A DNA stretch of 64,000 bases from a virus, in IMG/VR virus record IMGVR_UViG_3300008954_000007; one strand, given 5' to 3'. The notes beneath the pieces were generated by a model. That model was given only the letters and a program-made list of their open reading frames with translations, was not told the origin of the DNA and did not search any database. A program made the position numbers and the translations under genes. Positions 1 through 64,000 of the stretch are shown here, piece by piece; position 1 is the stretch's first letter; every line of letters begins with the position of its first letter.

Positions 1-1
1 C

Positions 2-5251: not shown

Positions 5252-6514
5252 ATGAGTAATTTAGAAGGTGTCTTCACCAAAGGCCCAGATGAAGAAGCTA
5301 TTGGTTCTGTTAGTGCTGATAATCAACCTAATATAGTTGATAGTGTTGAGCATTTTGTTCCAGAACCACTGCTTAACACTTTTCATGGTTTAATGAGGGA
5401 AAAAACATTTGTACGTTCTATGTTTAGAACAGTCAATATGCCCTATACGACCATGAATATTCCAACTATTGCTTCAGGAACCAGGGTTTATCACCAACCT
5501 AATGAAGCAGCACAGGGTGAAGCAACTGGCGTAACGTCAGATAGCTATCAAATCACTGCTAGAAAACTTATGGCTCAAACCATGATTTCTAGAGAAGTGA
5601 TGGAAGATGCAAATCAAAATATTCAGCGTGTAGTGACTGAAGATTTTGCTAGTGCATTAGCTGCTGCAGAAGAGCAAGCCTTTTTGTTGGGTCAAGAAGT
5701 TGGTACTTCAGCAATAGATCCTGATACTTCAGGTGCTAGTGTTAATAGTGGAACTGTAGCTGCTGATATTAGAAGAGCCACCAACATTTGGAAAGAGACA
5801 GGGTTGATTGACTTCAATGGTGCTACAGATCAACAAATGACAAATAACCCTAATGTTATTTGTGATGGTTTGTTGACAGTTGCATTGAGAAGAGGTGGTA
5901 AGAATGTTATTGATGCTGCAGGTGACTCTTTTTATGGTTCTACTGCCTATGAATTAGTTAGAGATGCCATTTCAAAAATGGGTATTTTGGGTAGAAACAA
6001 AAGAGAATTAGTTTTAATTGTTAATTCAGTTGCTGCTAGTCAATTATTGATGAGTAGTGAGTTGATGACTCTAGAAAAGTATGGTAGAGATGCCACTATT
6101 TTGACAGGTGAAGTTGGTCAACTATTTGGATTGAAAATTATTGAATCACAATGGTTACCAGGTGGTGCAGCAGCTACTACACTTGGTGGAGGCCCATCAG
6201 GTTCTCCAGTAGCAGCAGAAGGTGCTACTTATGAAGTCACTAAAGATGGTACTGGTGCATTAGGTACTCCTAGAGAGTATGGTCTTGGTGGTTATGCCAT
6301 CTTGGTTCATATTCCAAGTGTAACTATTGGTGATCGTAGAAAAGTCTCTATCAGAACAGAAGAAGAGATTGCTGTAGATGCTTTTAGAACAGTTCTAACA
6401 TCTAGAGTTGGATTCTATTGTCAGCAACAGTATGAGTATGGTGGAACAGCCCCACTTTGTCCAGTAGTTGCCATTGGTAACATGGATTCATCAATTGGAC
6501 TAGAATCTCCTTAG
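5252..6514 (+). CDS. Major capsid protein (HK97 fold)
   Basis: FVPEPL..., ITARKLMAQTMISREVMEDA, AAAEEQAFLLG, GQLFGLKIIESQWLP; follows the protease; GAGAGGT RBS. Confidence 0.92.
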   Translation: MSNLEGVFTKGPDEEAIGSVSADNQPNIVDSVEHFVPEPLLNTFHGLMREKTFVRSMFRTVNMPYTTMNIPTIASGTRVYHQPNEAAQGEATGVTSDSYQITARKLMAQTMISREVMEDANQNIQRVVTEDFASALAAAEEQAFLLGQEVGTSAIDPDTSGASVNSGTVAADIRRATNIWKETGLIDFNGATDQQMTNNPNVICDGLLTVALRRGGKNVIDAAGDSFYGSTAYELVRDAISKMGILGRNKRELVLIVNSVAASQLLMSSELMTLEKYGRDATILTGEVGQLFGLKIIESQWLPGGAAATTLGGGPSGSPVAAEGATYEVTKDGTGALGTPREYGLGGYAILVHIPSVTIGDRRKVSIRTEEEIAVDAFRTVLTSRVGFYCQQQYEYGGTAPLCPVVAIGNMDSSIGLESP

Positions 6515-7599: not shown

Positions 7600-8093
7600 T
7601 GGCTTTTCAAGATCCCATTAAAAATATCATTAAGTATTTAACTACTAATGACAATACTTCTAGTTTAAGAACTGTTGTAGAGATAGGGGAAGACTCTGGA
7701 CTATATAGAATTTATCATAATGCCATTAGATTTTGGGATATGAAAGATGATGAGTGTAAGGCGTTAACCTTAACTAAAATAAGGGATGGTGAGGGAAAGA
7801 ATGCCTTAGATCAAACTGTAGAGATGGCTTTTGAGTTTATATGTTGGTCTAACAAGAACAAAGAAAGTGAATTAATGGACTTGTGGGTTGCTTTGGATGA
7901 GATTTTTCACAATCAACACAATACTATTTATGAAAGCCTAACTGTAATACATTCTTTTAGATCACAAGAGCCAGTGTTTGATAATAGGTTTGCTTTAAAC
8001 TTAAGTCCAGCTACTACTAGATTATCATCTAGAACCAAACTAAGACTTCCTTCTGTATCTTCTACTTATACTTTCCTGGCAATGGAAAACTAA
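7599..8093 (+). CDS. Tail terminator/tail-completion-like protein
   Basis: Size, synteny after head closure, RIY..., FEFICWS...ELMDLWVALDEIFH pattern; TAATG coupling. Confidence 0.55.
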   Translation: MAFQDPIKNIIKYLTTNDNTSSLRTVVEIGEDSGLYRIYHNAIRFWDMKDDECKALTLTKIRDGEGKNALDQTVEMAFEFICWSNKNKESELMDLWVALDEIFHNQHNTIYESLTVIHSFRSQEPVFDNRFALNLSPATTRLSSRTKLRLPSVSSTYTFLAMEN

Positions 8094-9049
8094 GCTAAAT
8101 AGCTTTTAAGTTTTCTATCTCTTCTTTCCATCTCTTCTAGGTCATCAGTAAGAAAATTTAAGTTATTACTTTGTTGTTTTTGGGTAATACTTTCATGACT
8201 CACCCTAGAGTCATAGATGTTTTGTATTTCCTCTTTAGATAAGTCTGATGGGTCTTTCCCCCACTTACAAGCCATAATATCTATATCAAAAAACTTATTT
8301 TTATTAATAGTTTTTTCAATTAGTTTTATTCCACCCTCATCTCCATCCCCAAAAATAATTAATTTTTTAGCACCAAACTCCAATAGGGTTTTAACTTGGT
8401 TATCACTTAAGTCAGCACCCAAGAGTGCAGCACAGTTTTTGAAACCCTTCTGCCACATAGACATTACATCAAAAGCACCCTCTACAATAATGGTTTCTTT
8501 TTCAACTTGTTTTGAGAAGATGAAATTGGATTTAGGCATATTCTTAGGAAATATATATTTTCTTGAAGATAGTCCTGTATAGTCTCTAGCCTGAAAAGCT
8601 AAATTCCCTTTAGTTTCAATAGGAATTATAATTCTTTGATTGTAGATGGAAGATTTTTTCCTACATATGTGAAGATTGAAGTCTACTATTGTTTCAATTT
8701 CAAGTCTATTAGTTAGGTAGTAGGGGCAATCTGATTCATTAAATATCTTTTCAAATTCCTGGGGGAAAAACTTAAAATTTTCTTCTTTAGGGGTTTCTAA
8801 TTGACTTATGTCATCCAGTAGATCCTCTAGGCTATAGGTTATTTCAATATCTTCTAAACCATCAATGAGGTGACTGAGGTGACCTTTCTTATTGCACCCA
8901 TGACAATACCAAAGTTTCTTTTTCTTACTATATGAAGCAGATGGATTATCATCTAAATGGTCTGGACTAGGACAACTAATCCTTATTTCTTCATCAGTTT
9001 CGTTAAAAGTTATTATTCCAGCTTTTTCTAATATTTGTTTATGATTCAT
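8090..9049 (-). CDS. dnaG: DNA primase (zinc finger plus Toprim domain)
   Basis: CPSPDH...WYCHGC zinc finger; RIIIPI...FQAR...KY; IIVEGAFDV; DGDEGG; KDP. Confidence 0.92.
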   Translation of the reverse strand: MNHKQILEKAGIITFNETDEEIRISCPSPDHLDDNPSASYSKKKKLWYCHGCNKKGHLSHLIDGLEDIEITYSLEDLLDDISQLETPKEENFKFFPQEFEKIFNESDCPYYLTNRLEIETIVDFNLHICRKKSSIYNQRIIIPIETKGNLAFQARDYTGLSSRKYIFPKNMPKSNFIFSKQVEKETIIVEGAFDVMSMWQKGFKNCAALLGADLSDNQVKTLLEFGAKKLIIFGDGDEGGIKLIEKTINKNKFFDIDIMACKWGKDPSDLSKEEIQNIYDSRVSHESITQKQQSNNLNFLTDDLEEMERRDRKLKSYLA

Positions 9050-9480
9050 AGTGAGGGTAGGAATTTTGATTTTTTTCTGTAATTTCTTCTTGAAACTATT
9101 CTTTTTCTATATTTCTTATGAAAATCTTTGTTTTCTTTGGTTACTATTCTATCTATGTTGTCTTTTTTTTCAGTTTCTTGAAAAAGAACAATAGAGGCAA
9201 TACCTAAACTTGTTATTAACACAAAAAAAGTAGTTAGCATAAAAAACCAATCATCAGTGTTAAAGAAGTCAAAAAAGAATGAGAGATCAAGTTCTCCTAG
9301 AAGCATCGACCCTATTATTACTTTTGCACCAATTACTTGATGCATGTATTTGTTAGCTTTAGGAGTGCTTTTTGCTTCTGGATGTTTCTCATCCCATTCT
9401 TTAGATTCTTCTTTGACTCTTTCATTTAGTTCTTTAATTGCACTAAATGTTCTAAAAAAGACAAGGATTAGTCTAAGCAT
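9046..9480 (-). CDS. Small membrane protein (two hydrophobic segments, very basic C-terminus)
   Basis: VIGAKVIIGSMLLG and WFFMLTTFFVLITSLGIASIVLF segments; K/R-rich tail; overlaps both neighbouring genes. Confidence 0.65.
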   Translation of the reverse strand: MLRLILVFFRTFSAIKELNERVKEESKEWDEKHPEAKSTPKANKYMHQVIGAKVIIGSMLLGELDLSFFFDFFNTDDWFFMLTTFFVLITSLGIASIVLFQETEKKDNIDRIVTKENKDFHKKYRKRIVSRRNYRKKSKFLPSL

Positions 9481-11020
9481 TAATCATAGAAAAATCCCAT
9501 TCATCACCTATTTCTGTATAGTTATCCAACTTCATTATTTCAGTATTCAAAGAAGCGAAGATAGGATTTTTTAAAGAATAGTCTGTATCAAAATCATCAT
9601 CTTCTTCAGATTGAAATTCATTAACGTGCTCAAGAGAGTCTCCATCAACTTCAATCTTGGAATGACGAAGCTTAGTAAACCAAAACCTAACTCTTTTCTT
9701 AACTACATCATCAGTTGTTCTTTTCCAGTTTAATCCAATATCAATGTGATCTCTGATAGCAGTAGAATATTTATAGCTACCATCTTCTTGAGATTGAATA
9801 GGAACTATTAAAACAACATCTAGCGACCTAGCTAGAGCTTTTAGTTCAGCATATAGGTTAGAGTATGAGTGCCAACTTTGTTCTCCAGATAGAACTTCAT
9901 TCATTATACCTGGATAGTCAATAATTAACACATCACAGCCACGTTTTTCCTTTAGTTGGCTAATTTGAGACTTAATTATCTCAACACTACAACCTGAAGC
10001 AATGTCTATGGGGAAAAAGGTGTTTCTTCTTCTAAGGATTTTGGAATTTTCAAAAAACTTTTCTTCAATTTCTTCCTTACTAAAGGAAGCAAGTTCATTT
10101 CCAAAAAGATTAATGATTTTCTTGGCATCATTATAGCACTCAGGATCAACAGCTTCTAGTAAAACCATTTTTCTTAACCTTAAAGTGGTTTTAAGATCTA
10201 GATCACGCATTAATATCTTAGTGACAGGAATTTCACTCATCCTACTATGGAGTCTGGCTAATAATTCTTCTTCACTCATTTCTAAGCTAACATAAGCCAC
10301 ACTTAAATCTTCTTTATAGGCACTATAGCCCATGTTCATAGATACAATACTTTTACCACCTTGAGTTCCACTACCTAAACCTACTAGATTTGGTTTTCTA
10401 AACCCACCACCCATTTTTTCGTTTAGCTCTTTAATACCACAAGATATAATTTCTTCTTCATTAAAAGAAGTGCTATATCTTTCTAGAGCAATAGGGGAGA
10501 ATTCAGAAATATCATAATTAATGATGTTGTTAGAATATATCTGATTCTTTAGTCCAGCTATTTGGTCTTCTAAAAAACTTAAAGATTCTTGTGGGCTTTT
10601 TTGGCTAGAAATAATACTACTAGCCTCACGCATAGTTTTAATCAGAAAGTTTCTTAGATAGTTAGACTCAACTTGTTTTCTAACTAAGTTGTATTCTGCA
10701 TCAAAAAGGTCAGATTCAAAATTCTGGATGGATTGATAAATGTTGATTGACTCTTCAACATCTATGTCTCTTTTGATAATTTCTTGTTTTACAAGGTTGG
10801 CATCTGGCAAATGACCAGAGCTTTTGTAAAACTCAACAATGATGTTGAAGATGGTCTTATTGGGATTGTCAATAATCCATTCAGGATCAACTTCTCCTGA
10901 AATTCTTTTGACAAAATCTTTACTAGTTAAGTACCTAATAAGAGTAGGTTCTGTATCACAAACCTCTTTCTTAAAATCAACAAATTCATTATCATTGTTT
11001 ACTTTGGATTTTCTAATCAT
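9473..11020 (-). CDS. dnaB: Replicative DnaB/T4 gp41-like SF4 helicase
   Basis: Walker A GSGTQGGKS, YVSLEMSEEEL, VLIIDY, ELKALARSLDV, TKLRH; GAGGT RBS. Confidence 0.92.
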   Translation of the reverse strand: MIRKSKVNNDNEFVDFKKEVCDTEPTLIRYLTSKDFVKRISGEVDPEWIIDNPNKTIFNIIVEFYKSSGHLPDANLVKQEIIKRDIDVEESINIYQSIQNFESDLFDAEYNLVRKQVESNYLRNFLIKTMREASSIISSQKSPQESLSFLEDQIAGLKNQIYSNNIINYDISEFSPIALERYSTSFNEEEIISCGIKELNEKMGGGFRKPNLVGLGSGTQGGKSIVSMNMGYSAYKEDLSVAYVSLEMSEEELLARLHSRMSEIPVTKILMRDLDLKTTLRLRKMVLLEAVDPECYNDAKKIINLFGNELASFSKEEIEEKFFENSKILRRRNTFFPIDIASGCSVEIIKSQISQLKEKRGCDVLIIDYPGIMNEVLSGEQSWHSYSNLYAELKALARSLDVVLIVPIQSQEDGSYKYSTAIRDHIDIGLNWKRTTDDVVKKRVRFWFTKLRHSKIEVDGDSLEHVNEFQSEEDDDFDTDYSLKNPIFASLNTEIMKLDNYTEIGDEWDFSMINA

Positions 11021-50982: not shown

Positions 50983-50983
50983 C

Positions 50984-51348: not shown

Positions 51349-51379
51349 TTAAGCCAAGTCCTTTTGGCTAATACTTAAG

Positions 51380-51417: not shown

Positions 51418-51426
51418 GGGGTTAAA

Positions 51427-54400
51427 ATGAATAACAATAGAAATAAAAATACTTCTACTAGAAATCATCAAGAGAGTCATGTTCCATCATCTTCATCTAA
51501 CCACCAAAAGATTGCACAAAGTGACTATAATCATTTACCTATAGTTAGCCCTCAAAATAGATATGGATTGATGGATTGGGATTTGTTGAAATCAGATCCA
51601 TTGTTATATGGTAAGGGTGTTTTATATGGAAGGATGATTATAGCTGGTTCTTATTTGGGCAATAGAAAATATACAGCAACTATTGAACAGATTCATGATA
51701 GGGTAGTTCAGACAATTACTCCAATAAGTGCAGAAGAGTTTGTAGATGAGGATGGAAACCCTAAACTTACACCACTAACAGAAGAACAGTATGAATCTGC
51801 AGTAGAGGAGGGTTTAGCTCCTCAAGGTTGGGAAGCAAATCAACAATTTGTTGATTCTACTCAATGCATTATAAGGTTTGATGATTTTAAAATTTCTTAT
51901 AACGATAGAAGAAGTAAGAAAAATAAACCAGAAGTAGATTATTATTATATAGTTTGGGATGCTGATGAAAGCGTAGAATGGTCAATGGTTCACCAGATTG
52001 GTGCAGCATTGTTTTCCAATATATCTGCTGATTTTGAGGCTTGGTTAGCCTCTGATCCTATTATATTTAGAGATATAGATTCTGAAGAATTTACTGCAGA
52101 TACTACTAGTCTTTGGTCAACTTCTATGACCTATGAAGAATGGTTAGATAAATTTTTAGCTAGAAATGAGGCTAAACCTAGTGATCAATTTTTAGCTTGG
52201 GTTCAAAATGGATTTAATGTTACTGTTGCTAATAGTATTTTAAATGGAGAAGGTTTAGCCTCATTAGGAGATATTGATAATTTATTTGGAGAAGGGGTAT
52301 CAAAGAAATATAGGATAGAGAATTATCGTGACTATGGTGATAAAAACAGAAGAGATGCCATACAAAATAAAGAAGGTAACTCTAGTATAAATGATAGATA
52401 TGGACAATATTATGTATTAAAAAATATAGATGTTACAGACATTGTTGAAGGAAAGGAAACTACAATAGTTTCTGATGTTACCAAGATAGAAATAGAAGAA
52501 GATGGTCAAACAATAAAGCCATTTTTTAATCAACAATTTGATGAATCTTCAGGCAAGCATTATTTTAGTTATTTAAATGACAATAATTTCCAGTTAAAAT
52601 CTACAGACTTTGGCCCTCATACTTATAACGTGGAGTATTATGGGGATTATATAGCATACAATACTCAAGAAAATTTAGATGCTTATAATGCTTGGATAAT
52701 CGAAAACTCAGAAGAACATAATAGTGATCCCACTAAAGTGTTTGAAGCTTTGGGGTTTACTAATTCAGATGATTCTTTTAGAACAGAACCACCAATAGTA
52801 GCTAGTGGTTTTTTTGAAGATGATTATGCACATTTTGTGGACAATTATGAAATCCAACAAGCATATATGAATTCTTTTGGAAAAAGTTGGTTTGATCTTC
52901 TTAGTTCTGATAAAGATTTAGCTTCAAGTGTTGAAAGAGTAGAAAGATATAGTGATTACTTAGCAAAAAGAGGATTGGATGATACTGAATTAAATAAATT
53001 GGGATATCAGGCTGATTATTTTGAAGCTTATGAGAAATCCACAGGGCAAAGAGCTTTTAATTTAGATAAGAACTTACCTGATGATCAACAGCCTGATGAA
53101 GAAACAGATAGAGTTTATGCTAATTTAATTCATGGTACTTTCCCATTAGAGTTAAGTAACAATAAGACTTTTACAGGAACAGTTAGTATTATTGCTCCAG
53201 ATATATTTTATGATTATAGGAATAGATATTTGGAGTTTTTAGATGTAGATAATTTTGGTTTTCAATCTATAGTAGATAATAAAGAGTTACAGTATAAGTA
53301 TAAAGATGAGTTTTACTCTAATTTATCAAGCAGAAGATTAGAAATAATAGATAAGTCTGATGAATTTTCTCCTACAACATATGGTGATTGGGGAGAAAGA
53401 TCTCAACTATACCCTGGGTATTTAAAACTTCAGAGAAATAGAGGACATTATAGGGTATATAGTGATGTTTTCAAAAATTACGTAAATAGCTTTGTAGATA
53501 GTGGTAGATTTCCTTCTTTTGAGGATGTAATAGGTCAATTAGTAGATGAAACAAATCTCATAACGAATGCAGATTATGCAATTTGGGATTTTGAAAGGCA
53601 ATCTAAAAGAAATGAACTTTATAGTGAGGCTTCAGACCCTAGTAATACATATCATAGTGAGTATTCAGACTATCAAAACGATTTAGATGATTGGAATAAT
53701 AATGGTCAAGTTGGTGATGAACCAATAGATCCATTTATTGGTCTAGCTAATAGTTTCTTGGAATCTTCAGGTGTTGTAAGTATACATGGATCAAGATTAC
53801 AAGGTATTCCTTCAGAAGATATAAGATTTGGAGATGGAAATATATATAGTGAGCCAGATCAAGAAATACCAGAATATTCAACTAACCCAATTTGGACACA
53901 ATGGGATGGATACAGTGCTGAAAAAAAACAAGAAACTACTCTAGAGTGGGATCAATGGGTAGTAGATCATGAAGCATGGGTTGAATTAGGATCTACTCAA
54001 GAACCAGAACCTGAAGAACCATCAGGAAAATATAAATATCCAGAACCTTATAAAACTGTTGTAAATAAAATGAGAGTGGAAAACACTCTACAGTTTAGAG
54101 AGAAAATAGCTGATTCATTAGAGAAAGTTTTTGAGAGAGATATAGATTATACAGTAGATCCTTTGAGTAGTGAGACTGTTAGTGTAGATTTAGGGTTCTT
54201 AGTTGATAAGGGAATAGTTCCTAGTGAAGAAGAATATTTAGAAAAATATAAAACCAACTATAAGCTAACTGCTACTAAATCTTTTTATTATATTGGTGGA
54301 AATGGAGAAAAAATATATTATCAAGAGGAAGATAGAGATAATACAGATCTTATAAAGCCAAAAGAAGAACTTATTAAGCATAATAGTAAAAGAAGAAGTT

Positions 54401-57400
54401 ATTTCAAACAAAATGGATCTCCTGTAACTAAAAAAGATTTTACTAATATAGGATCATCACTTGAGGAAATAAGCTTTGATTTTCATATTACTAGCGATTT
54501 TAAGAGGTGGTATAAATTTAACCAATTTAAGGGTTTTACTGCCTATGAAATGCTTTATAATTGTTTAAATCCACTGTACTCTACTGCAGATGGGCAATCT
54601 TATAGAACAGAAAAACTTTTACATCTAGATTGGAATGGTGCGTATGGTACTTTAGAGAATAAAGTAACAAAAATATCTTGGGAAAAAGATTTAGCTAATA
54701 ATCAAACATCATTGAATTGGAACAATTTAAACTTAAGTGGATATAGTCTTTTTGATCCTACTGATGTTTATAGTGGTAAGTTAATAGAAATGTTGATTTA
54801 TCAAGCATTAGTTAATAAAAAACCATTTGTTTATGAATATTATATAGAAGTTGATAATTGGTATTTATTGCCAGATTTAACTGATGAATCAAAAAAAGCT
54901 TATGATGAGGAATATTCTTATAAAGGCACTCCCTATGAATTGATACCAGATCAAGAAGATGAATCTGATGTTTTCTTTTCAGAATTGTCAAGTGATAAGA
55001 TTTATTTTTCAGTTAAAATGAAAGATGAAGATGGTTATTATTCTTCTTTATCTAGTAATTTCACTTCATTAGATAGAGGTAGATTAACATTACATCAAGG
55101 ATTAATAGGTGCTAATAATGCTGGTATTTTAGAAGTAGATGACTTTAAACCATTATTTACTGCTGTTGTTTCTGGATCTTCTTTTAACATTAAAGAGTAT
55201 ACACCTTTAGCCAAGTATAGAAACATAAGTGGAGTATTAATAGATGAAGAGGTTTCTATTTTTCATCCAGAAGTAAAGGCTGATCAGCAATATCAAACTT
55301 ATCAAAAGGGAACACAAAGTTTTTTAGATTTAACTAGCAAGCATATTTCAATTAAATCAGATGATTGGCAAGTGGATGTTTCAGAAAAAGAAGTGGAGAA
55401 TGGAGAATCCACTTATTTACAGAACAAAGAAGAAAAAGGGTTTTTTGCTTCTCAAGATGGGATCAATATTCATAAAACTTTTTCAATAATAGAACCAGAA
55501 TATTATGTTTATAACGATCAAGGAATTTTAGAAGAGGAAGTTCCAGAAACTTCAACAGAAAAAGAATTCAGTATAAACTTATCCCATAGTACTTTAACAA
55601 TAGATAATCCCTATCAAAGTAAAAACTCACCCAATACTATTCTAGATAGTGACAAATTAGAGTTAAGATCAGATGCAGGTGGTATTACATTATCATTAAA
55701 TTCTAATGTTGACAATGGATCATCTTTATCAGATAGGCCATCTATTATAATTGAAGATGATAGTTATAATTATTTTATTTTAACTAATGATGGTGTAGTG
55801 AATGTAAGTGGTGATTATAAAGATTTTTCATCACATAAGTTTGGAAAAACATTAGAAATCTATGCACCAACAGTTTCTATGGATACTGGTTGGTTATCAA
55901 TAAATAGCGATGGGCGTTATGATTACACTAGTGTTATTACACACAGTTATTTAGGTCATGATCAAATTTTAATAAATGAGTTTAATTATTCTAATTTATT
56001 AACCCCTAGTTCTATTGTTTTAACGAATAAGCATTCTATTCTTGATGATAATGTAAGGTTAGATCCATCAACAGGTAATGAGTTATTTAATATAAGAGAA
56101 GAAGAAGATGATTCGACAAAAACTTATTCTTTAGCAATACCATTTGGTTCATTTGGTCAAATGTACTATATTGAAAATATTGATGTTGATACTAGATATG
56201 GTGATTTTCAAACTCATTTAGCACTTAAAAATTATAATCCTGCTTTATTTGGTAGTCCAGTTGTAGACATAGATGATCCTTATAGTTTTGCAACTCCCCC
56301 TAATCAAGAACAATCAGCTAATATATCAACATGGTTCAGTTTAAAAAATTGGATTATAAGCAGACCTTATCTTTCGCAATATTCATTAACAAAAGAAGAT
56401 TTACTTAAATTTAAAAGATTTACAAATGACGATAATTTTGACTTTCCAAATGGAGAAGAAGAAAATTACTTACACTTTATAACACCACATTATGTTGATT
56501 TTATAGAAACTCCTGATTTTCACTCTTATGCTAGTGAGTTAACATTAAAGCCAAATTATTTGTCTATTTCACATGTTAATGAAGGAGCTATGTTTAGACA
56601 TGGATTAATGGCTTTATCTGAAAACGACAGACTGGAACTCTACCCTAAAGCATTTGCACAGGTTACTAAAGATAACATTACAATAAAAAATAAGGATGAA
56701 GAAAAATTGATCTTAGAAGCTAATTTAGTCGCTGGTGAAAATTCAAGTGGCAAGTTTGTTTTAAATACAAATAATGGATTAGTTCTTTTTGATAACCTAA
56801 CAGATGATAATGACGAAGTTTCTGACTTTGAAGATTTAATTTCAAAAAGTAAATCAACATTAACAACTAGTGGTGTTTCTTTTATAGATAATTTATCTTC
56901 AGACCCCAAATTTGAAGAACTTGCTGAACCTGGTGATGAATGGGGTTATGAAGTCTCTTTAGGTAGATTAAGTGGTTTACGATTAACCTCTAATATTTTA
57001 TTAGAAAGCGAAAGTGAAGATCCTAATAGTGAAGATTCTAAAATTGTTGGATCTTACACTACCTCTATAAAACCAAAAGAAGCAACCTTTGGGGGTAATG
57101 TAGAAGTAAAGAATGATTTATTAATTCAAGGTGATTTTTTAGTTACAGGAGAATCCTCAATAATTGAGACAAGTATACTGTCCATCGAAGATCCATTAAT
57201 TCATTTAGCAAGAGGAAATGAAGGGCTAAATATAATGGACTTAGGGATTTATGGGGATTATTTTGATGCTTCAGATCAAATAGTAAATCCAGAATATGAG
57301 AATTATCAAAATAATCTTGGAAACACTAATTGGTTGTTAAATTGGCAAACTGAAAATGAATACATTACTCAAACACAGAATGAAGTTGCTACAGATGAGG

Positions 57401-60400
57401 ATGGTAATCCTATAATACCTTCACAATATATAGGTGGACATCCAACAAGGTTTGCTTTTGTTAAAAAGCGTAATACCATCAGTGATTTTTATCTGTTAGC
57501 TGATCTACCACAAGATGACAAAGATTTTTTTGAAGAAACAGACGATAATGAAATTATTAATTATCAAATTAAAGAAGATAATTTTGCTAAAGAGTATTTA
57601 GCAACATTATATGCCAATCTTGCACCTTTCAACCTTACTTTAAAGTCATTTAACCATATAACATCTATAGAACCAGATCTTTATAGTCAGATTGAGTATG
57701 CATGGGAGAGTGATGCTGATCTTGAACAACAAGATGGTTCAGACATTAATACTGAAACAGAGATAAATTCTATAGTATTGAAAGAAGGAAAGATTACAGT
57801 TAGTCATGAGTTGAACTCTCAAGGATCTTTAACTGTAGATGGAAGTGCAAAACTTAAAAACGACCTAGTTATTGAAAATACAAGTCTTTTTGAGGCATAC
57901 ACAACTTACATGGGGGATGGTGGTTCAGATGCCTTGGCGTATTTTAATCTTGATGAAGTTCCAACAGAAACTATTGAGGTTTTTAAAGTTGATAATATTG
58001 GAAATACAGATATATTTGGCACAGCATCTATAAGAAGAACCCTATCAGTAGATAAAAAGACAACTCTATCTGATGAGTTGGAAGTAACTGGTGTAACAAC
58101 ACTTAATGATAACCTGAATATTGGAGACGTAGGGGATGATGATTTACCACAATTTTCAGTTATTGAGAGTTCAGGAAACACTAATATAAAGGGAACTCTA
58201 GGTGTAAAAGGGATAACCACTTTAGATAGCTCTTTACAGAGTAGAAATATATATGCTGGTGGTTCTATTTATGTTCAAATCCCCCCCAATACTGATTCAG
58301 GAAATACAGCACCTATAAACACATTTGAGATAGATAGAGACACTGGTAATACGACTATAAAAGGAACATTAGATGTTAAAGAGGAAGATAAACTAACAAC
58401 CCTATCTAAACTAAAGGTATTGGATTCCATTGATATTTCAGGATTTGTTACGTTTGGTGGATATGGTGATAAATCTGGTTGGCTTATAACTGGTAATGAT
58501 GACACTAATGGTGATGATTTAGATAATGAAGAAACAACAGAAAATATCACAACATATATAAAAGCATCTGTAGATGCTTCAGTTAATGATGGTTTACCTC
58601 ATAGCGTTATATTAATAAGTGATGGAGAAGATAGTCTAACAACTTTAAGTACAGTATCTTCAACAATAAATGGAACTTTAGCAGTTACTGGTACTTTAGA
58701 TGTAGATGAATTAACTACTTTGGGTGGAACATTAGGTGTAACAGGAAATACTCAACTTAACAATGGTTTAACAGTAACAGATGATTTAACCACCTTGGGT
58801 GGAACATTAGGTGTAACAGGAAATACTCAACTAGATGGTGGATTAACAGTATCTAATGAATTAACCACTTTGGGTGGCACACTAGATGTGACAGGTGCTA
58901 CTCAATTAAATAATGGTCTAACAGTAACAGATGATTTAACCACTTTGGGTGGTACACTGAGCGTAGCAGGTGCTACTCAACTTAATAATGGTTTAGAAGT
59001 TAGTAATGCCCTAACAACATTAAATCAGGGATTATCTGTTACAGGGGATGTCACTACACTAACTGGATCATTAACAGTAACAGGTGCTACCACATTTAAT
59101 GATGGTAGTGCAACAGCCATAGATAACACTTTAACTGTTACTGGAGCTACTGTCTTAAATTCAACACTATCAGTTCTTAATAACTTAACAACTCTCCATT
59201 CTTTGGTAGTTAATGGGGGAATTACATTTAATGACATTACTGTTTTTGATGGATATGGTGATGAATCTGGTTGGATTATAACTGGTAATGATGACACTGA
59301 TGGTGGAGAATATAATTCTGATGATAGTGATATAAATTCTACTACATATATAAAAGCATCTGTAGATGCTTCAGTTAATGATGGTTTACCTAATAGTGTT
59401 ATATTAATAAGTGATGGAGATGGAACAGAAGAAAATACTGTTATAACAACATTAAGTGCAGTAGATTCAACAATATCTGGAACTATAACCACAACTGGAA
59501 CCACTACATCAGGGGGGAAACTAACAGTAAGCTCTGATGGTCTTGAAGTTACTGGAGCAACAACTTTAAACAATAAGCTAACAGTAAGCTCTGGTGGTCT
59601 TGAAGTTACTGGAGCAACAACTTTAAACAATAAGCTAACAGTAAGCTCTGGTGGTCTTGAAGTTACTGGAGCTACTCTTCTCCAAGACACCAGAATGACC
59701 AGTTGGGAAATTTGGAAAAATGATGATGAAGACGAAAATACGTTATCTAGAAATTCAAATGATGGAGTTTTAACTTTAGGTAAGGGGTTGATTAAAGGGA
59801 GTCAAATTGGTGAAATTCCTTCAGACATAGTTACTGGAAACTCTACAGATATTCTTGGTGCAGGAGAAGTTACTTATGAAGCTTGGCTGCAAGGAGTAGA
59901 TGATTTCAGCTATCTAGTAGGTCATTCTTTACCAGCAATTGGTCTTAGTGCAGAAACCCTAGAAGTCTTAGTGGGAGAAGATAAACCATATTCAAATAAT
60001 AAGTTGTTGTCTCAGGATATCTTCACCAGTGGAATTAATAAAGCAGTAGAATTAGGATTTAGTGAAGCAGAGAGGGCTTTTGTTACTGGTTATTTAACTT
60101 TTTATGAAGATAATTCAGGTCAGAGTAGAAATACTTCAGGTGGTTTTGATGAGCCTGAAAACACTCACTCTAACTCAATTCCTGCTGATGGGATCTATTC
60201 TCCTATAGCATCTAGAGCTTGGGTTAATAATCGAAATATTAAGCTAGGTGTTAAGCAAACAAATGAAAGCATACCTTATTTTGACTTATCTTTCAGAGAA
60301 ATGGATAGTTCTCAAACTTTTAATGACAATAGTAATTCTATATTGTTGTTTGATTCTAGTGATAATAGTATCAATTTAACGTATTCAAATGATTCATCAA

Positions 60401-63400
60401 ATAATCATATAATTAACATAACTGCAGATATACCAGAACAAGCAAAACCCCTGGAAATGTTCTTTTATCCTACATTTGATTTTAAAGAACTATTGCCTTT
60501 AATTAAGGAAAAAGGCACAGGGGGAGATCCTCAATTTATATTTGACTATAACCAATTTCAAATACCAGGAAAATGGCAAGATTTTATTGAAACAAAAGAG
60601 GTTCAAGTTGAGGTTACAAAAAAAAGAGAAATAAGTAAGGTTAACTTCACCACTATAACTGTAAATGCAATTGAATTGTGGAATACAACTTGGAAAGATT
60701 ATTTTGAAGGAGCAAATTCTGCAGCAGAGGCTGCAGATCAAGAACCACCATATGATATGGATTTGATAAGCGAACATGTTGCTGATACTGATTTAGAACA
60801 TATACATATACCAGATGCAATGGATGCTCAAATTGGGGGGTTTGACCCACAAACCTCTCAGCAGATTATGCCTGAGTTAGATGAACCTATTCATTTAAGA
60901 ATTCCAGAGGATGTGAGTACAGAAGAGGAAGAATATACAGTATGGGAACCAACAACTGAAGAAGATGTGGTTCAATCTCTTGTAATACAACCATCTTATG
61001 CCACTACTGCAGAACTTGTTGCTACAGTAGCAGGACAACAACAGGAGTTTAAGCATGGATGGATAATGCAACAACCAAATGGAACTCAGGTAGTTGAATA
61101 TAATAATCCAATAGAATATGATAACTTAACAGTAGTATATGTAGATCAGTATGGAGAAAGAATAACGCAACCAAATGATGTTAATACACAATCTGTGAAG
61201 GGTTTTCAAAGGTTATTTGAGTTTTTCTCACATAAGTTTGGAGATATTGAATCTTCATTCAGGTCTAAAAACTTCTGGACAGGTAAAGATCCCTATATAC
61301 CTAGAAAATATCAATATTATTTAGCCAATGATATTGACGAAGCTTCTACAACTAGAAGTCACTTTAGTGGTCAATTAGTAGAATTAGGCTTTCCAGATAT
61401 TATGAATAAGGAAAGCTTTCAACATCTTGACAGTAAGCATAATTTAACTATTCAAAAAACAACAACAGATGACCATGCACAATATTTTGGTGATTTATTT
61501 GATAATTATGAAAGCTATACAAATATAGTTGGTGATTTAAGTGAGGGAGTGGATGGTGTTATCTTTTCAGAAGAAGTGTCTACGAAAAATGTTTTTTATG
61601 CTGTAACAGATAGCCATGTAGAGGAAGTTTTTAATGTCAGCAACAACTTCCAGGTTGATAGTGTAAGTGGTGCAGATAATGCTGCTTCTGTAGTAGGTAT
61701 TACAGAAAATGATACAGAGATAGGTTTTTATTATCCTGTTGTAAAATATGCCACTCATTGGGAAAGCAATACAAGAATCCCCATAAATACAGCAATGTAC
61801 ATTGCCTCTGATGGTGGTGATCTTGTAGTAACTAATGATGGTCAAGAACTTAATTACTTAAATAGCATAGAGCAATTAGGTTTATATTTTGTAAATTTAA
61901 TAAAAAAAGATCTAGAAGGTATTTTTAACACATGGGATGGGGGTAATAAGCCTTGGCTATATAAAGACAACAGGGGAGATTGGATAGGGTTTGATCATTA
62001 TTATCAACCTAGTGGAACAGATAATTTAGTTTATTATGCACAAAGCAAATTATCTAAAGGTTATGATGGGAAAGCTTCAGCACAACACACAGATCTTAGA
62101 GAAAGAAATTTAGTTGATTTTACTGAATGGGTTGAGCTTAGGTTTACTGAATTTGATGATTATAACTATAATGCTCTAGAAGAAGTATTCCAACAGATCT
62201 ATGACACTATAGATGGTCTTGATAATGATTACCATCCACTAGAAGGTAATCCAAACCTTGATTTTACAGCTAAAACTCTTACGTCTGCTGGATCTATTGC
62301 AGGATTAGATATTTCTGCAAGTGGTGGTTATAATTCAAGTGATGATTCATGGTCAGGTGGGTTTAATGGAGATCTTGACGCTAGTTATGCAGATATTACA
62401 ACTGCTGTAATAACTAATCTTACTTTAAAAAATCCAGGTTCAACAATTACCAATTTACTTTTAACTGCTGAACAAAATGAAGCTTTAGCTGCAGAAGTAT
62501 CAGCAGAACAAATTAGGAATGCTTTTGATCTAGTAGATGACCTTGGTGTTTCTTTATTAGATAAGTTTGCAGAAGAGTTTGACACTAATGACAGTTTAAC
62601 ATTCTATGAGGACTTAGCTAAAACATTTGATTCTAATGATCAATATTTTGAAGAAGCTGGAACCATAGAATTTTATGAAAGACTAGCAAAATCATTTGAT
62701 ATATTTGATAGACACAATGACACTGCAGGTGTGACAGTTTTTGATTTTTATGAAGAATTAGCTAAAGAATTAGATACTGTAACTAATTTTTATCTACAAT
62801 TGTCAGCACAACTTACTTCAGGACAGGTATCAAATGTAGGTAGCTTTATAAATAGATATGATAATTTAGCTTCAGGATTTCAAACTATAAGTTCTGATAA
62901 TGATCAAGACCACAACCATATAGAGAGATTACAGCAAGTTGGAGCTAGATTTGTTGAATATGGAAATTTAGCAGATGGTTTTGAAAATGAATCTATAATA
63001 GTTTCAGTAAGTAGTCAAAATATAGATGGGGCATGGAGATTAGAACAAGTTGGAGCTAATTTAGATGGATATGGTCATATAAAAGATGGATTTTCTCAAA
63101 ATGGAGATAGGCTTAAAGAGATAGGGTATTTACTTACAGGTTCTAATGATTATAGTCAAATAAAAGCAGGGTTTATTGAAGGTAATCCTGGTATGGTTAA
63201 CCTTCAAGAAATAGGGGAGAGGCTTACAATTGCCTCAGACTATAATCAAATAAAAGTGGGGTTTGCAAATAGTGATGATAGACTTAAAGAAGTTGGAGCT
63301 AGGCTAGTTGAATATGAGACATTAGCAGATGGTTTTCAAACAGAAGATATAGACGCTGCAGTACCTGGTGTATTAGAAGATCAAAATGGTGTATATAGGT

Positions 63401-64000
63401 TAAAACAAATAGGGGCTTGGTTAACTGATTATGAACAGATAGCAAATGGATTTTCTGTTTATGATGATGGTGCTAATTTAGCAACTATTGGTGGTTTATT
63501 AAATAGTGATTCTGAATATGAAGCAATAAAGAATGGATTTGTAGTTGGTGGTCATCTTCCTGAGATTGGTGCTTTATTAGATAGTGAGTCTGAATATGAA
63601 GCAATAAAAGATGGCTTCAACACTGATGACAATTTAAATGAAATAGGGAAGCTTCTTGGCGTAGACTCTGATGGCAACACACTTACCTCAGATTATGATT
63701 ATATAAAATTTGGATTTGCCACTGCTGATAATCTTCAAACTATTGGTGGCATGTTAAATTCTGCTATCAATTATCTTAACATAAAAAATGGTTTTGCTGA
63801 AAAGGAAGTTAATGATGTTACTGGAGAAACTAGACTTCAAACTATTGGTGGTTTACTAAACAGTAATGATGAACATGAAACCATAAAAAATGGATATGTA
63901 GATGCTGGATTTCTCACTAATGTTGGTGCTTTATTAGATCATGAGGATGAACATGAGTTAATAAAATCAGGATATGCTACAGATGCTAATCTTGAAATTG
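51427..64000 (+). CDS. Fourth giant fibre-like protein, 3'-truncated (>=4191 aa), absent from the ORF track
   Basis: ATG AAT AAC AAT AGA... in frame 1 reads open wherever checked, through ...GYATDANLEI at the window end. Contains SSIIETSILSIEDPLIHLARGN..DLGIYG, LTVTGATTL beta repeats and C-terminal helical repeats. Confidence 0.88.
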   Translation, partial: MNNNRNKNTSTRNHQESHVPSSSSNHQKIAQSDYNHLPIVSPQNRYGLMDWDLLKSDPLLYGKGVLYGRMIIAGSYLGNRKYTATIEQIHDRVVQTITPISAEEFVDEDGNPKLTPLTEEQYESAVEEGLAPQGWEANQQFVDSTQCIIRFDDFKISYNDRRSKKNKPEVDYYYIVWDADESVEWSMVHQIGAALFSNISADFEAWLASDPIIFRDIDSEEFTADTTSLWSTSMTYEEWLDKFLARNEAKPSDQFLAWVQNGFNVTVANSILNGEGLASLGDIDNLFGEGVSKKYRIENYRDYGDKNRRDAIQNKEGNSSINDRYGQYYVLKNIDVTDIVEGKETTIVSDVTKIEIEEDGQTIKPFFNQQFDESSGKHYFSYLNDNNFQLKSTDFGPHTYNVEYYGDYIAYNTQENLDAYNAWIIENSEEHNSDPTKVFEALGFTNSDDSFRTEPPIVASGFFEDDYAHFVDNYEIQQAYMNSFGKSWFDLLSSDKDLASSVERVERYSDYLAKRGLDDTELNKLGYQADYFEAYEKSTGQRAFNLDKNLPDDQQPDEETDRVYANLIHGTFPLELSNNKTFTGTVSIIAPDIFYDYRNRYLEFLDVDNFGFQSIVDNKELQYKYKDEFYSNLSSRRLEIIDKSDEFSPTTYGDWGERSQLYPGYLKLQRNRGHYRVYSDVFKNYVNSFVDSGRFPSFEDVIGQLVDETNLITNADYAIWDFERQSKRNELYSEASDPSNTYHSEYSDYQNDLDDWNNNGQVGDEPIDPFIGLANSFLESSGVVSIHGSRLQGIPSEDIRFGDGNIYSEPDQEIPEYSTNPIWTQWDGYSAEKKQETTLEWDQWVVDHEAWVELGSTQEPEPEEPSGKYKYPEPYKTVVNKMRVENTLQFREKIADSLEKVFERDIDYTVDPLSSETVSVDLGFLVDKGIVPSEEEYLEKYKTNYKLTATKSFYYIGGNGEKIYYQEEDRDNTDLIKPKEELIKHNSKRRSYFKQNGSPVTKKDFTNIGSSLEEISFDFHITSDFKRWYKFNQFKGFTAYEMLYNCLNPLYSTADGQSYRTEKLLHLDWNGAYGTLENKVTKISWEKDLANNQTSLNWNNLNLSGYSLFDPTDVYSGKLIEMLIYQALVNKKPFVYEYYIEVDNWYLLPDLTDESKKAYDEEYSYKGTPYELIPDQEDESDVFFSELSSDKIYFSVKMKDEDGYYSSLSSNFTSLDRGRLTLHQGLIGANNAGILEVDDFKPLFTAVVSGSSFNIKEYTPLAKYRNISGVLIDEEVSIFHPEVKADQQYQTYQKGTQSFLDLTSKHISIKSDDWQVDVSEKEVENGESTYLQNKEEKGFFASQDGINIHKTFSIIEPEYYVYNDQGILEEEVPETSTEKEFSINLSHSTLTIDNPYQSKNSPNTILDSDKLELRSDAGGITLSLNSNVDNGSSLSDRPSIIIEDDSYNYFILTNDGVVNVSGDYKDFSSHKFGKTLEIYAPTVSMDTGWLSINSDGRYDYTSVITHSYLGHDQILINEFNYSNLLTPSSIVLTNKHSILDDNVRLDPSTGNELFNIREEEDDSTKTYSLAIPFGSFGQMYYIENIDVDTRYGDFQTHLALKNYNPALFGSPVVDIDDPYSFATPPNQEQSANISTWFSLKNWIISRPYLSQYSLTKEDLLKFKRFTNDDNFDFPNGEEENYLHFITPHYVDFIETPDFHSYASELTLKPNYLSISHVNEGAMFRHGLMALSENDRLELYPKAFAQVTKDNITIKNKDEEKLILEANLVAGENSSGKFVLNTNNGLVLFDNLTDDNDEVSDFEDLISKSKSTLTTSGVSFIDNLSSDPKFEELAEPGDEWGYEVSLGRLSGLRLTSNILLESESEDPNSEDSKIVGSYTTSIKPKEATFGGNVEVKNDLLIQGDFLVTGESSIIETSILSIEDPLIHLARGNEGLNIMDLGIYGDYFDASDQIVNPEYENYQNNLGNTNWLLNWQTENEYITQTQNEVATDEDGNPIIPSQYIGGHPTRFAFVKKRNTISDFYLLADLPQDDKDFFEETDDNEIINYQIKEDNFAKEYLATLYANLAPFNLTLKSFNHITSIEPDLYSQIEYAWESDADLEQQDGSDINTETEINSIVLKEGKITVSHELNSQGSLTVDGSAKLKNDLVIENTSLFEAYTTYMGDGGSDALAYFNLDEVPTETIEVFKVDNIGNTDIFGTASIRRTLSVDKKTTLSDELEVTGVTTLNDNLNIGDVGDDDLPQFSVIESSGNTNIKGTLGVKGITTLDSSLQSRNIYAGGSIYVQIPPNTDSGNTAPINTFEIDRDTGNTTIKGTLDVKEEDKLTTLSKLKVLDSIDISGFVTFGGYGDKSGWLITGNDDTNGDDLDNEETTENITTYIKASVDASVNDGLPHSVILISDGEDSLTTLSTVSSTINGTLAVTGTLDVDELTTLGGTLGVTGNTQLNNGLTVTDDLTTLGGTLGVTGNTQLDGGLTVSNELTTLGGTLDVTGATQLNNGLTVTDDLTTLGGTLSVAGATQLNNGLEVSNALTTLNQGLSVTGDVTTLTGSLTVTGATTFNDGSATAIDNTLTVTGATVLNSTLSVLNNLTTLHSLVVNGGITFNDITVFDGYGDESGWIITGNDDTDGGEYNSDDSDINSTTYIKASVDASVNDGLPNSVILISDGDGTEENTVITTLSAVDSTISGTITTTGTTTSGGKLTVSSDGLEVTGATTLNNKLTVSSGGLEVTGATTLNNKLTVSSGGLEVTGATLLQDTRMTSWEIWKNDDEDENTLSRNSNDGVLTLGKGLIKGSQIGEIPSDIVTGNSTDILGAGEVTYEAWLQGVDDFSYLVGHSLPAIGLSAETLEVLVGEDKPYSNNKLLSQDIFTSGINKAVELGFSEAERAFVTGYLTFYEDNSGQSRNTSGGFDEPENTHSNSIPADGIYSPIASRAWVNNRNIKLGVKQTNESIPYFDLSFREMDSSQTFNDNSNSILLFDSSDNSINLTYSNDSSNNHIINITADIPEQAKPLEMFFYPTFDFKELLPLIKEKGTGGDPQFIFDYNQFQIPGKWQDFIETKEVQVEVTKKREISKVNFTTITVNAIELWNTTWKDYFEGANSAAEAADQEPPYDMDLISEHVADTDLEHIHIPDAMDAQIGGFDPQTSQQIMPELDEPIHLRIPEDVSTEEEEYTVWEPTTEEDVVQSLVIQPSYATTAELVATVAGQQQEFKHGWIMQQPNGTQVVEYNNPIEYDNLTVVYVDQYGERITQPNDVNTQSVKGFQRLFEFFSHKFGDIESSFRSKNFWTGKDPYIPRKYQYYLANDIDEASTTRSHFSGQLVELGFPDIMNKESFQHLDSKHNLTIQKTTTDDHAQYFGDLFDNYESYTNIVGDLSEGVDGVIFSEEVSTKNVFYAVTDSHVEEVFNVSNNFQVDSVSGADNAASVVGITENDTEIGFYYPVVKYATHWESNTRIPINTAMYIASDGGDLVVTNDGQELNYLNSIEQLGLYFVNLIKKDLEGIFNTWDGGNKPWLYKDNRGDWIGFDHYYQPSGTDNLVYYAQSKLSKGYDGKASAQHTDLRERNLVDFTEWVELRFTEFDDYNYNALEEVFQQIYDTIDGLDNDYHPLEGNPNLDFTAKTLTSAGSIAGLDISASGGYNSSDDSWSGGFNGDLDASYADITTAVITNLTLKNPGSTITNLLLTAEQNEALAAEVSAEQIRNAFDLVDDLGVSLLDKFAEEFDTNDSLTFYEDLAKTFDSNDQYFEEAGTIEFYERLAKSFDIFDRHNDTAGVTVFDFYEELAKELDTVTNFYLQLSAQLTSGQVSNVGSFINRYDNLASGFQTISSDNDQDHNHIERLQQVGARFVEYGNLADGFENESIIVSVSSQNIDGAWRLEQVGANLDGYGHIKDGFSQNGDRLKEIGYLLTGSNDYSQIKAGFIEGNPGMVNLQEIGERLTIASDYNQIKVGFANSDDRLKEVGARLVEYETLADGFQTEDIDAAVPGVLEDQNGVYRLKQIGAWLTDYEQIANGFSVYDDGANLATIGGLLNSDSEYEAIKNGFVVGGHLPEIGALLDSESEYEAIKDGFNTDDNLNEIGKLLGVDSDGNTLTSDYDYIKFGFATADNLQTIGGMLNSAINYLNIKNGFAEKEVNDVTGETRLQTIGGLLNSNDEHETIKNGYVDAGFLTNVGALLDHEDEHELIKSGYATDANLEI
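58453..59420 (+). repeat. 176-bp direct duplication (58453-58628 and 59245-59420)
   Basis: Near-identical flanks (GYGDxSGWxITGNDDT and TYIKASVDASVNDGLP..VILISDG) around a divergent core of about 13 codons. Confidence 0.9.
58708..59010 (+). repeat. 75-bp tandem repeat x4 (ELTTLGGTLGVTGNTQLNNGLTVTD)
   Basis: The LTTLGG codons recur at 58711, 58786, 58861 and 58936. Confidence 0.9.
59521..59672 (+). repeat. 57-bp near-perfect tandem repeat x2.7 (LTVSSGGLEVTGATTLNNK)
   Basis: Units start at 59521, 59578 and 59635; one mismatch between units 1 and 2. Confidence 0.95.
62600..64000 (+). repeat. Alpha-helical tandem repeats: FYExLAKxFD x4, then about 13 units of (R/N)LxxIGxxL...YxxIKxGF
   Basis: Manual translation of frame 1, e.g. 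NLATIGGLLNSDSEYEAIKNGF and HLPEIGALLDSESEYEAIKDGF. Confidence 0.8.

What the first reader, a model, noticed from the sequence alone, without database searches (positions are those of the whole stretch)
1..64000. Apparent absence of CCG/CGG, and near-absence of CGAG/CTCG, across 64 kb
Seen: reading the CG dinucleotides through the window, I found ACG, GCG and TCG followed by A, T or C, but no CCG and no CGG. The very frequent Asp-Gly and Asn-Gly pairs appeared as GAT-GGN and AAT-GGN wherever I looked, Pro never used CCG and Arg never used CGG. I saw no CGAG and only one CTCG (41226-41229, inside fibre insert 4). GATC, GGCC, GCGC and GCWGC are present, so this is not general palindrome avoidance. 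Removing an entire trinucleotide goes beyond avoiding one 4-6-bp restriction site. Inference: selection from a host defence with a very short target, several overlapping R-M sites, a modification-dependent system, or the phage's own DNA modification or nuclease. The scan was by eye, so rare occurrences may have been missed.
Basis: seen in the sequence. Interest (0 to 1): 0.8.

Follow-up and report, generated by a model that had tools for sequence, protein, structure and literature searches.

The report
Phage genome purged of CCG/CGG
This uncultured marine phage has removed every CCG/CGG from about 140 kb of DNA, and its sister lineage has removed GCG/CGC instead, which looks like an extreme form of escape from DNA-cutting host defences and hints at an unknown agent that reads only CG plus one neighbouring base.

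Summary
The window has 0 CCG, 0 CGG, 0 CGAG and 1 CTCG. Expected CCG+CGG is 104±11 from a dinucleotide model and 322±17 from synonymous codon shuffles. The 133.6-kb record has one CGG, in a non-coding hairpin, and 7.7 kb more from a 144-kb copy has none.

The loss is the same on both strands, covers coding and non-coding DNA, and was achieved by synonymous choices: 245 Asp-Gly pairs, none written GAC-GGN.

GGWCC, GGGAC, GGTCTC, CGCG and 10 of 12 GC-rich CpG-free 6-bp palindromes are absent. GGCC is 3-5-fold depleted. GGAGG is gone even from ribosome-binding sites.

A 105-kb relative shares about 20 avoided words but has normal CCG. The sister clade (at least 5 lineages) keeps CCG and has no GCG/CGC (0 of 1067 CpGs followed by C).

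I found no methyltransferase, base-modification gene or integrase.

Best reading: restriction-type purifying selection on a virulent, unmodified phage, probably by one agent reading CG plus one flanking base. The host and the agent are unknown. This is a new variant of restriction-site avoidance. Earlier notes of this scan describe other phages purged of a two- or three-letter word.

The parts
1..64000 (.). Stretch with no CCG, CGG or CGAG on either strand. CpG observed/expected is 0.15. GGWCC, GGGAC/GTCCC and CGCG are also absent.
   Evidence: 0 observed against 104 (Markov-1) or 322 (codon shuffle) expected.
41226..41229 (+). The only CTCG in the window, and the only one in the whole record. 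It lies inside the 5286-aa fibre-like ORF (35122-50982).
11142..63999 (+). Four giant ORFs (2246, 5742, 5286 and 4911 aa; the last runs off the window). They hold most of the Asp-Gly and Asn-Gly pairs, all written without a C|GG junction.
   Evidence: all X-Gly pairs have 0 first codons ending in C.
5252..6514 (+). HK97-type major head protein. It marks the window as tailed-phage DNA.
   Evidence: phrog_10, E 2.8e-15; PF05065.
9473..11020 (-). DnaB-like replicative helicase. It was used to find relatives and to build the tree on which the purges are mapped.
8090..9049 (-). DnaG-type primase.
   Evidence: phrog_47, E 9e-40.

Best explanation
The CCG/CGG-free state results from strong purifying selection on the double-stranded DNA itself. 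It is an extreme form of restriction-site avoidance in a virulent marine tailed phage that carries no DNA methyltransferase or base-modification genes and so protects itself by having nothing to cut. Shown: the purge is real, strand-symmetric, genome-wide and synonymous, and it is embedded in a large vocabulary of avoided restriction-type words. It is a derived trait of this lineage, while the sister lineage purged GCG/CGC. Inferred: the selecting agent is a host DNA-targeting defence, and it is most likely one agent that reads CG plus a single flanking base (CGG here, CGC in the sister clade) rather than a chance pile-up of longer sites. Each CCG/CGG would then be a potential cleavage or recognition site, so each loss raises the chance that an infecting genome survives. 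Every CpG can be removed synonymously, so the word has been driven to zero.
For: Depletion: 1 against 247 expected in the record; 0 against 104 or 322 in the window; codon junctions 0 against 264 and 0 against 245. Action at the double-stranded DNA level: the two complementary words of each pair (CCG and CGG, CGAG and CTCG, GGGAC and GTCCC, GGTCTC and GAGACC, CAGCTC and GAGCTG) are all 0-1 on the + strand. The single CGG lies in non-coding DNA. Restriction signature: 10 of 12 GC-rich CpG-free 6-bp palindromes are absent, against 9% of composition-matched non-palindromes. 51 recognition sites in Biopython's enzyme table are at least 5-fold depleted, including GGWCC, GGNCC, GGCC, GGTCTC and the BamHI, KpnI, NcoI, AvrII, SacI, PvuII, MscI, StuI, NheI and SphI sites. 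GGAGG is purged even from ribosome-binding sites: AGGAG is followed by G in 2 of 195 cases, against 49 of 187 in relative G001. Lineage specificity: G001 (105 kb, 46% helicase identity) shares about 20 avoided words but has CCG at 318 against 383 expected. On the helicase tree, this phage is sister (support 100/99) to a clade of at least 5 lineages (73-88% nucleotide identity) with 0 GCG/CGC, and the next outgroup has neither purge. One reader rather than many: the context effect ends at +2 of the CG. The purged four-letter classes are exactly the four that contain CCG. Four of the 210 possible sets of 4 out of 10 NCGN classes equal a trinucleotide, and the sister clade shows the same pattern for GCG. 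Lifestyle: no methyltransferase, ThyA/ThyX, TGT or integrase was found; an ArdC-like anti-restriction gene is present. Control: in 80 unrelated bacterial loci the lowest CCG observed/expected is 0.75. Marine methylomes do contain CGCG, GCGC, GGWCC, TGGCCA, CCSGG and CTCC methylation (PMC8919816).
Against: No restriction enzyme with a 3-bp CCG/CGG or GCG/CGC site appears in Biopython's enzyme table; it lists only longer sites that contain them. The host is unknown, since the one host-directed search was uninformative, so no matching defence gene or methylome can be shown. Only one species-level genome represents the CCG-free lineage, and its copies are 99.9-100% identical, so ongoing selection cannot be measured within it. 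The intermediate relatives L018-L020 lack CCGC, CCGG and most CCGA but keep CCGT, which looks more like four-letter words being lost one at a time.
Confidence: 0.5

Rival explanations
1. Modification-dependent route. A host CpG-type or short-motif cytosine methylase marks phage DNA. Type IV enzymes of the MspJI/FspEI/McrBC kind then cut methylated C in a particular context (C-mC gives CCG; mC-N-N-G gives CGNG). The phage escapes by deleting the contexts that would be recognised.
For: All CpG contexts are depleted, not only CCG. CpG observed/expected is 0.16 here and 0.26-0.5 in relatives. C|GA, C|GT and C|GC junctions are 2.5-4.5-fold below the codon expectation. The forbidden contexts are G at +1 and G at +2 of the CG, with only CGTG surviving. 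That resembles the 2-4-base contexts of MspJI-family enzymes such as mCNNR and BB-mCG-D, as listed in PMC12707154. CA, TG, CAG and TGG are in excess.
Against: No CpG methylase is known for any candidate host, and the phage has no methylase. A McrBC-like R-mC reader would also forbid ACG, which is enriched in both lineages. The CGTG exception is not explained. The whole chain is inference.
Confidence: 0.2
2. Several ordinary 4-6-bp restriction sites that all contain CCG (CCGG, CCGC and others) were purged one after another, and together they happen to remove the trinucleotide.
For: CCGG and CGCG are absent from every relative, and GCGC from most. L018-L020 lack CCGC/GCGG and CCGG, have few CCGA/TCGG, and keep CCGT/ACGG, which looks like an intermediate stage. 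The phage plainly avoids dozens of independent sites.
Against: It requires enzymes for CCGA/TCGG and CCGT/ACGG, which are not in Biopython's enzyme table. The purged classes coincide exactly with one trinucleotide in two sister lineages (about 2% by chance for each). There is no context signal beyond +2.
Confidence: 0.15
3. The phage's own weapon. A phage-encoded nuclease with CCG/CGG preference (or the TnpB system, if its target-adjacent motif were CCG) destroys host or competitor DNA, and the phage genome is kept free of the motif for self-immunity.
For: The genome encodes an SNase-like protein, a PD-(D/E)XK Cas4-like nuclease, an SbcCD-like pair, a T5orf172 protein and a TnpB with many guides (earlier notes e1-5877993 and e1-5878006). 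A change of specificity would explain the switch from CCG to GCG between sister lineages.
Against: None of these families is known to be specific for a three-letter word. ORF1's proposed nuclease has no Pfam or PHROG hit, and its neighbour has only a weak match to a protein-type immunity family (SUKH-1, E 0.036, below the family cut-off), which would make a motif purge unnecessary. This rival does not explain the roughly 25 other purged words.
Confidence: 0.07
4. Mutation bias alone. Methylated CpG in a CCG context deaminates and decays to CTG/CAG or TGG/CCA without selection.
For: CpG is depleted overall, and TG, CA, TGG and CAG are in excess.
Against: Zero among about 250-570 expected needs a loss-to-gain ratio above 250. 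The GCG purge is held at exactly zero across at least 5 lineages that differ by 12-27% in nucleotide sequence. The phage has no methylase. GGAGG and CpG-free palindromes are purged too.
Confidence: 0.05
5. An assembly or sequencing artefact.
For: None found.
Against: The same sequence appears in independent JGI, ENA and Logan assemblies of different samples at 99.86-100% identity. Reading frames of up to 5742 aa are intact. The purge is achieved by coherent synonymous codon choice.
Confidence: 0.01

Closest known systems
Type II restriction-site (palindrome) avoidance in virulent dsDNA phages (Rusinov et al. 2018, PMC6286503, as cited in PMC12707154 section 63)
   Same: Short words are removed from a non-temperate phage genome by synonymous change. 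The removal is strand-symmetric and lineage-specific. Classical sites such as GGWCC, GGCC, CCGG, CGCG and many 6-bp palindromes are purged here too.
   Different: The main purged word has three bases, not 4-6, and matches no enzyme in the table used. The vocabulary is unusually large, with about 26 minimal words. A sister lineage purged a different CpG trinucleotide.
Staphylococcal phage K and Bacillus phages that lack GATC or GGCC (from my own knowledge, not checked here)
   Same: A short word has been completely eliminated from a genome of more than 100 kb.
   Different: Those words are the sites of known host enzymes (Sau3AI, HaeIII-type). Here no matching enzyme or host is known.
CpG under-representation linked to CpG methylases such as M.MpeI in Mycoplasma (Wojciechowski et al. 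2013, as cited in PMC11282364)
   Same: CpG deficiency across the genome, with TpG and CpA in excess.
   Different: That is a graded decay driven by mutation in the methylase's own genome. Here there is an absolute zero in one flanking context, in a phage without a methylase.
MspJI-family and other modification-dependent (Type IV) enzymes with 2-4-base contexts (PMC12707154 section 33)
   Same: Very short recognition contexts around a cytosine, of the same size as the purged words.
   Different: They need methylated cytosine. No methylation of this phage or its host has been shown.
Chlorella-virus enzymes with 2-4-base sites, such as CviJI (RGCY), Nt.CviPII (CCD) and M.CviPI (GC) (from my own knowledge)
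   Same: They show that nucleases and methylases reading 2-3 bases exist in nature.
   Different: They are encoded by eukaryotic algal viruses, their specificities are different, and no homologue was looked for here.

Membership tests
Restriction-site avoidance by a phage | The word is far rarer than composition and codon usage predict. | tested here: met
   0-1 observed against 104-566 expected, depending on the null model.
Restriction-site avoidance by a phage | The word and its reverse complement are avoided equally, in coding and non-coding DNA (selection on double-stranded DNA, not on RNA or protein). | tested here: met
   the two complementary words of each pair are both 0-1; the avoidance is synonymous.
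Restriction-site avoidance by a phage | The avoided word is the recognition site of a known restriction-modification system. | tested here: not met
   Biopython's enzyme table has no 3-bp CCG/CGG site, only longer sites that contain it. The feature is met for co-avoided words such as GGWCC, GGCC, CCGG, CGCG, GGTCTC and 10 hexamer palindromes.
Restriction-site avoidance by a phage | The host carries the matching system. | not testable with these tools
   The host is unknown. The histidine-kinase search gave at most 40% identity, spread across many phyla.
Restriction-site avoidance by a phage | The phage is non-temperate and has no protective methylase or base modification of its own. | tested here: met
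   no methyltransferase, ThyA/ThyX, TGT or integrase in a record estimated 93% complete. The missing part encodes large tail proteins.
CpG decay by cytosine methylation and deamination | A CpG-context C5 methylase acts on the genome. | tested here: not met
   no PF00145 match in the phage. A host enzyme cannot be tested.
CpG decay by cytosine methylation and deamination | A graded deficit with the decay products TpG and CpA in excess. | tested here: inconclusive
   CA 1.28 and TG 1.13. However, the deficit is absolute in one context, and it is held at zero across diverged lineages.
Avoidance of a CRISPR or TnpB target-adjacent motif (PAM/TAM) | The depleted word equals the adjacent motif of a system in the host or the phage. 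| not tested
   The motif read by the phage's TnpB is unknown (earlier notes). The published survey found only weak depletion of such motifs in phages (PMC4246573, title and abstract seen).

The most novel reading that the evidence does not exclude
Marine bacteria carry an undescribed defence (a nuclease, or a methylase paired with a methylation-dependent nuclease) that recognises only CG plus one flanking base. Its specificity switches between CGG and CGC, and this has driven sister phage lineages to erase different trinucleotides from genomes of more than 100 kb.
Probability: 0.3. Interest if true: 0.8.

Novelty: new variant of a known kind. Interest (0 to 1): 0.58.

Why it matters
Site avoidance is the imprint that defences leave on phage genomes, so it can be read backwards to infer defences that nobody has seen. 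Here the imprint is a three-base word containing CpG, and a sister clade carries a different one. No enzyme in the table used accounts for either. If a single agent is responsible, it would be the shortest-site DNA defence known in bacteria and a possible new enzyme tool. The CCG-free and GCG-free phage genomes are ready-made negative-control substrates for finding it. The case also shows how far synonymous recoding can go in a phage: about 26 forbidden words, including the core of its own ribosome-binding site.

Tried and rejected
- Close relatives: no DNA or capsid-protein match in the phage collection or IMG/VR. Relatives were reached only through the helicase.
- Host inference: the phage's hybrid histidine kinase gave at most 40% identity across many phyla. 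There are no tRNA genes. The protein-atlas look-ups gave only a weak Bacteroidota lead for the RRM protein and viral clusters for the endolysin. The Bacteroidota lead fits poorly with the phage's clear AGGAG ribosome-binding sites. Relatives cannot be drawn for a virus record.
- Within-population selection: the metagenomic copies are 99.86-100% identical, too few differences to test.
- RNA family for the hairpin that holds the only CGG: only spurious miRNA-like hits.
- ORF1 nuclease: no Pfam or PHROG hit. Its neighbour has only a sub-threshold SUKH-1 hit.
- Defence-system models (PADLOC) on ten candidate proteins: only generic ATPase, Cas4-like and TnpB/Cas12f-like similarities, nothing restriction-related.
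- Literature searches: no report of CCG/CGG or GCG/CGC purges in phages.
- RNA-level explanations, such as a toxin ribonuclease motif, were considered and rejected because both complementary words are absent on the sense strand.
- An artefact was rejected because independent assemblies agree.
Full report
**What the window is.** The window lies at 50274-114273 of a single 133,564-bp virus record. CheckV estimates the record to be 93% complete. It is a tailed phage.
- Structural genes: an HK97-type major head protein, a portal, three tail-tube paralogues and a 2524-aa tape-measure protein.
- Replication genes: a DnaB-type helicase and a DnaG-type primase.
- A GH108 endolysin.
- Four giant ORFs of 2246 to 5742 aa.

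The same genome occurs at 99.86-100% identity in independent JGI, ENA and Logan assemblies of marine water-column samples, on contigs of up to 144,293 bp. An artefact is therefore excluded.

The window has 279 CG but no CCG, CGG or CGAG, and one CTCG at 41226.
- First-order Markov simulations of the window give CCG+CGG 104 ± 11, with a minimum of 77 in 200 runs. Synonymous codon shuffles give 322 ± 17.
- The whole record has one CGG and one CTCG, and also no CGCG. Pooled over both strands, CCG/CGG is 1 observed against 247 expected.
- 7.7 kb more, taken from the 144-kb contig, has none.
- The one CGG (genome 21715) sits at the foot of a long inverted repeat in a non-coding spacer. No Rfam family matches it.

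**How the words were removed.** They were removed by synonymous choice.
- Pro never uses CCG (0 of 1195 codons) and Arg never uses CGG (0 of 1316).
- No codon ending in C precedes a GGN codon (0 against 264 expected).
- No NCC codon precedes a codon starting with G (0 against 245 expected).
- All 245 Asp-Gly and 152 Asn-Gly pairs avoid the C|GG junction.

Each purged word is missing together with its reverse complement on the same strand. The target is therefore double-stranded DNA, not mRNA or protein.

This phage shows very broad avoidance of restriction-type words.
- GGWCC: 0 against 81-97 expected. GGGAC: 0 against 65-97. GGTCTC: 0 against 28-35. GGCC: 26 against 74-135.
- 51 recognition sites in Biopython's enzyme table are at least 5-fold depleted.
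- Eleven of the 41 CpG-free 6-bp palindromes are absent.
- Among GC-rich CpG-free hexamers with at least 8 expected, 10 of 12 palindromes are absent, against 9% of non-palindromes.
- CCTCC/GGAGG is 3 against about 100-127. AGGAG is followed by G in only 2 of 195 cases, against 49 of 187 in a relative. The phage has thus rewritten its own ribosome-binding sites.
- GATC, GCGC and GCWGC are not depleted.

**No self-protection genes were found.** Six-frame searches found no C5, N4/N6, D12 or N6 methyltransferase, no ThyA or ThyX, no TGT and no integrase. Pfam scans of about 65 ORFs found none either. An ArdC-like anti-restriction gene is present. This is the profile of a virulent phage with unmodified DNA, the class in which site avoidance is known to be strongest (PMC12707154).

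**Comparison with relatives.** The helicase led to relatives in other ocean metagenomes.
- All of them lack CCGG, CGCG and GGWCC, nearly lack GGCC, and have low CpG (observed/expected 0.26-0.53).
- G001, a 105-kb relative with 46% helicase identity, shares about 20 of this phage's avoided words. Its CCG is normal (318 against 383) and so is its GGAGG. It has purges of its own: GCGC, ATCGAT, CCAAGG, GATATC and TTCGAA.
- On the helicase tree, this phage is sister (support 100/99) to a clade of at least five lineages that are 73-88% identical in nucleotide sequence. That clade keeps CCG at observed/expected 0.9-1.2 but has no GCG/CGC at all: 0 of 1067 CpGs are followed by C.
- The next outgroup has neither purge.
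- A further clade (L017, L018, L115) has CCG at 0.28-0.37. It has lost CCGC, CCGG and most CCGA but keeps CCGT.
- In 80 unrelated bacterial loci, the lowest CCG observed/expected is 0.75 and the lowest GCG value is 0.52.

**What the allowed contexts show.** Around the surviving CpGs of this phage, only two positions are constrained.
- G at +1 is forbidden (1 of 1246).
- G at +2 survives essentially only as CGTG (65 occurrences against roughly 210 expected from base composition).
- From +3 onward there is no signal.

The purged four-letter classes are exactly the four that contain CCG. Only 4 of the 210 ways of choosing 4 of the 10 NCGN classes equal a trinucleotide, and the sister clade repeats the pattern for GCG. 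I therefore favour one agent reading CG plus one flanking base over an accumulation of unrelated 4-6-bp sites. The intermediate L018 pattern keeps the accumulation rival alive.

**Mechanism.** Shown: strong, long-lasting purifying selection at the DNA level, of the same kind as restriction-site avoidance and specific to each lineage. Inferred: the agent belongs to the host. Either it cuts unmodified DNA at CCG/CGG, or a short-motif cytosine methylase is coupled to a methylation-dependent nuclease.
- The methylation route would also explain the general CpG deficit and the effect of G at +1 and +2. It resembles the 2-4-base contexts of MspJI-family enzymes (PMC12707154).
- Marine prokaryotes and viruses do methylate CGCG, GCGC, GGWCC, TGGCCA, CCSGG and CTCC (PMC8919816). 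That fits many of the co-purged words, but a CCG or GCG motif was not reported there.
- Mutation bias alone cannot hold a word at zero across lineages that differ by 12-27%.
- The phage's own nucleases and its TnpB remain a minor possibility.
- ORF1's proposed nuclease has no family support.

**Novelty.** Site avoidance is well known. A complete purge of a CpG trinucleotide, with a different trinucleotide purged in the sister clade, is not something I could find in the literature searched. Earlier notes of this scan, which I did not check, report other phages purged of a two- or three-letter word: GAG/CTC in one phage family, and CG in crAss-like phages and in an archaeal element. The kind of phenomenon therefore seems to recur. 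I class this as a new variant of a known kind, of moderate to high interest. The interest lies mainly in what it implies about an unidentified short-motif defence.

Noticed in passing
genome 16741-17616 (-), outside the window (L001:16741-17616): An ArdC-like anti-restriction protein (ArdcN plus a zincin peptidase domain) is encoded by the phage. It is a second anti-restriction strategy beside site avoidance.
   Followed up: partly
genome 21680-21790 (L002:2680-2790): A long near-perfect inverted repeat in a non-coding spacer holds the only CGG of the record. It matches no Rfam family.
   Followed up: partly
whole record and relative G001: CTGCAG (the PstI site) is about 2-fold over-represented here (51 against 24 expected) and 1.5-fold in G001 (25 against 16), while most other GC-rich palindromes are absent.
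   Followed up: no
genome 28547-29992 (-) (L002:9547-10992): The phage encodes a hybrid sensor histidine kinase with a receiver domain. Its best cellular matches are only about 40% identical and are spread over many phyla.
   Followed up: partly
genome 27271-27687 (+) (L002:8271-8687): A dCMP deaminase and a dNMP kinase-like gene are present, but no ThyA or ThyX thymidylate synthase was found.
   Followed up: partly
L126:19831-27575 (JGI contig Ga0105018_1000024): Two JGI contigs of identical length (144,293 bp) carry the helicase at different positions, which suggests a circularly permuted complete genome. The roughly 10.7 kb missing from the 133.6-kb record encodes at least two more large proteins (1522 and 1690 aa).
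   Followed up: partly
genome 35338-35646 (-) (L002:16338-16646): An RRM-domain RNA-binding protein lies directly beside the TnpB gene (genome 34039-35334).
   Followed up: no
window 2962-3444 (+): The small ORF after the 1773-aa head-associated protein gives only a sub-threshold SUKH-1 (SMI1_KNR4) hit (E 0.036). The proposed upstream nuclease domain has no family hit.
   Followed up: partly
genome 117375-122265 (L004:3376-8266): Three paralogous Phage_tube_2 tail-tube genes lie in a row, between the giant fibre-like genes and the tape-measure gene.
   Followed up: no
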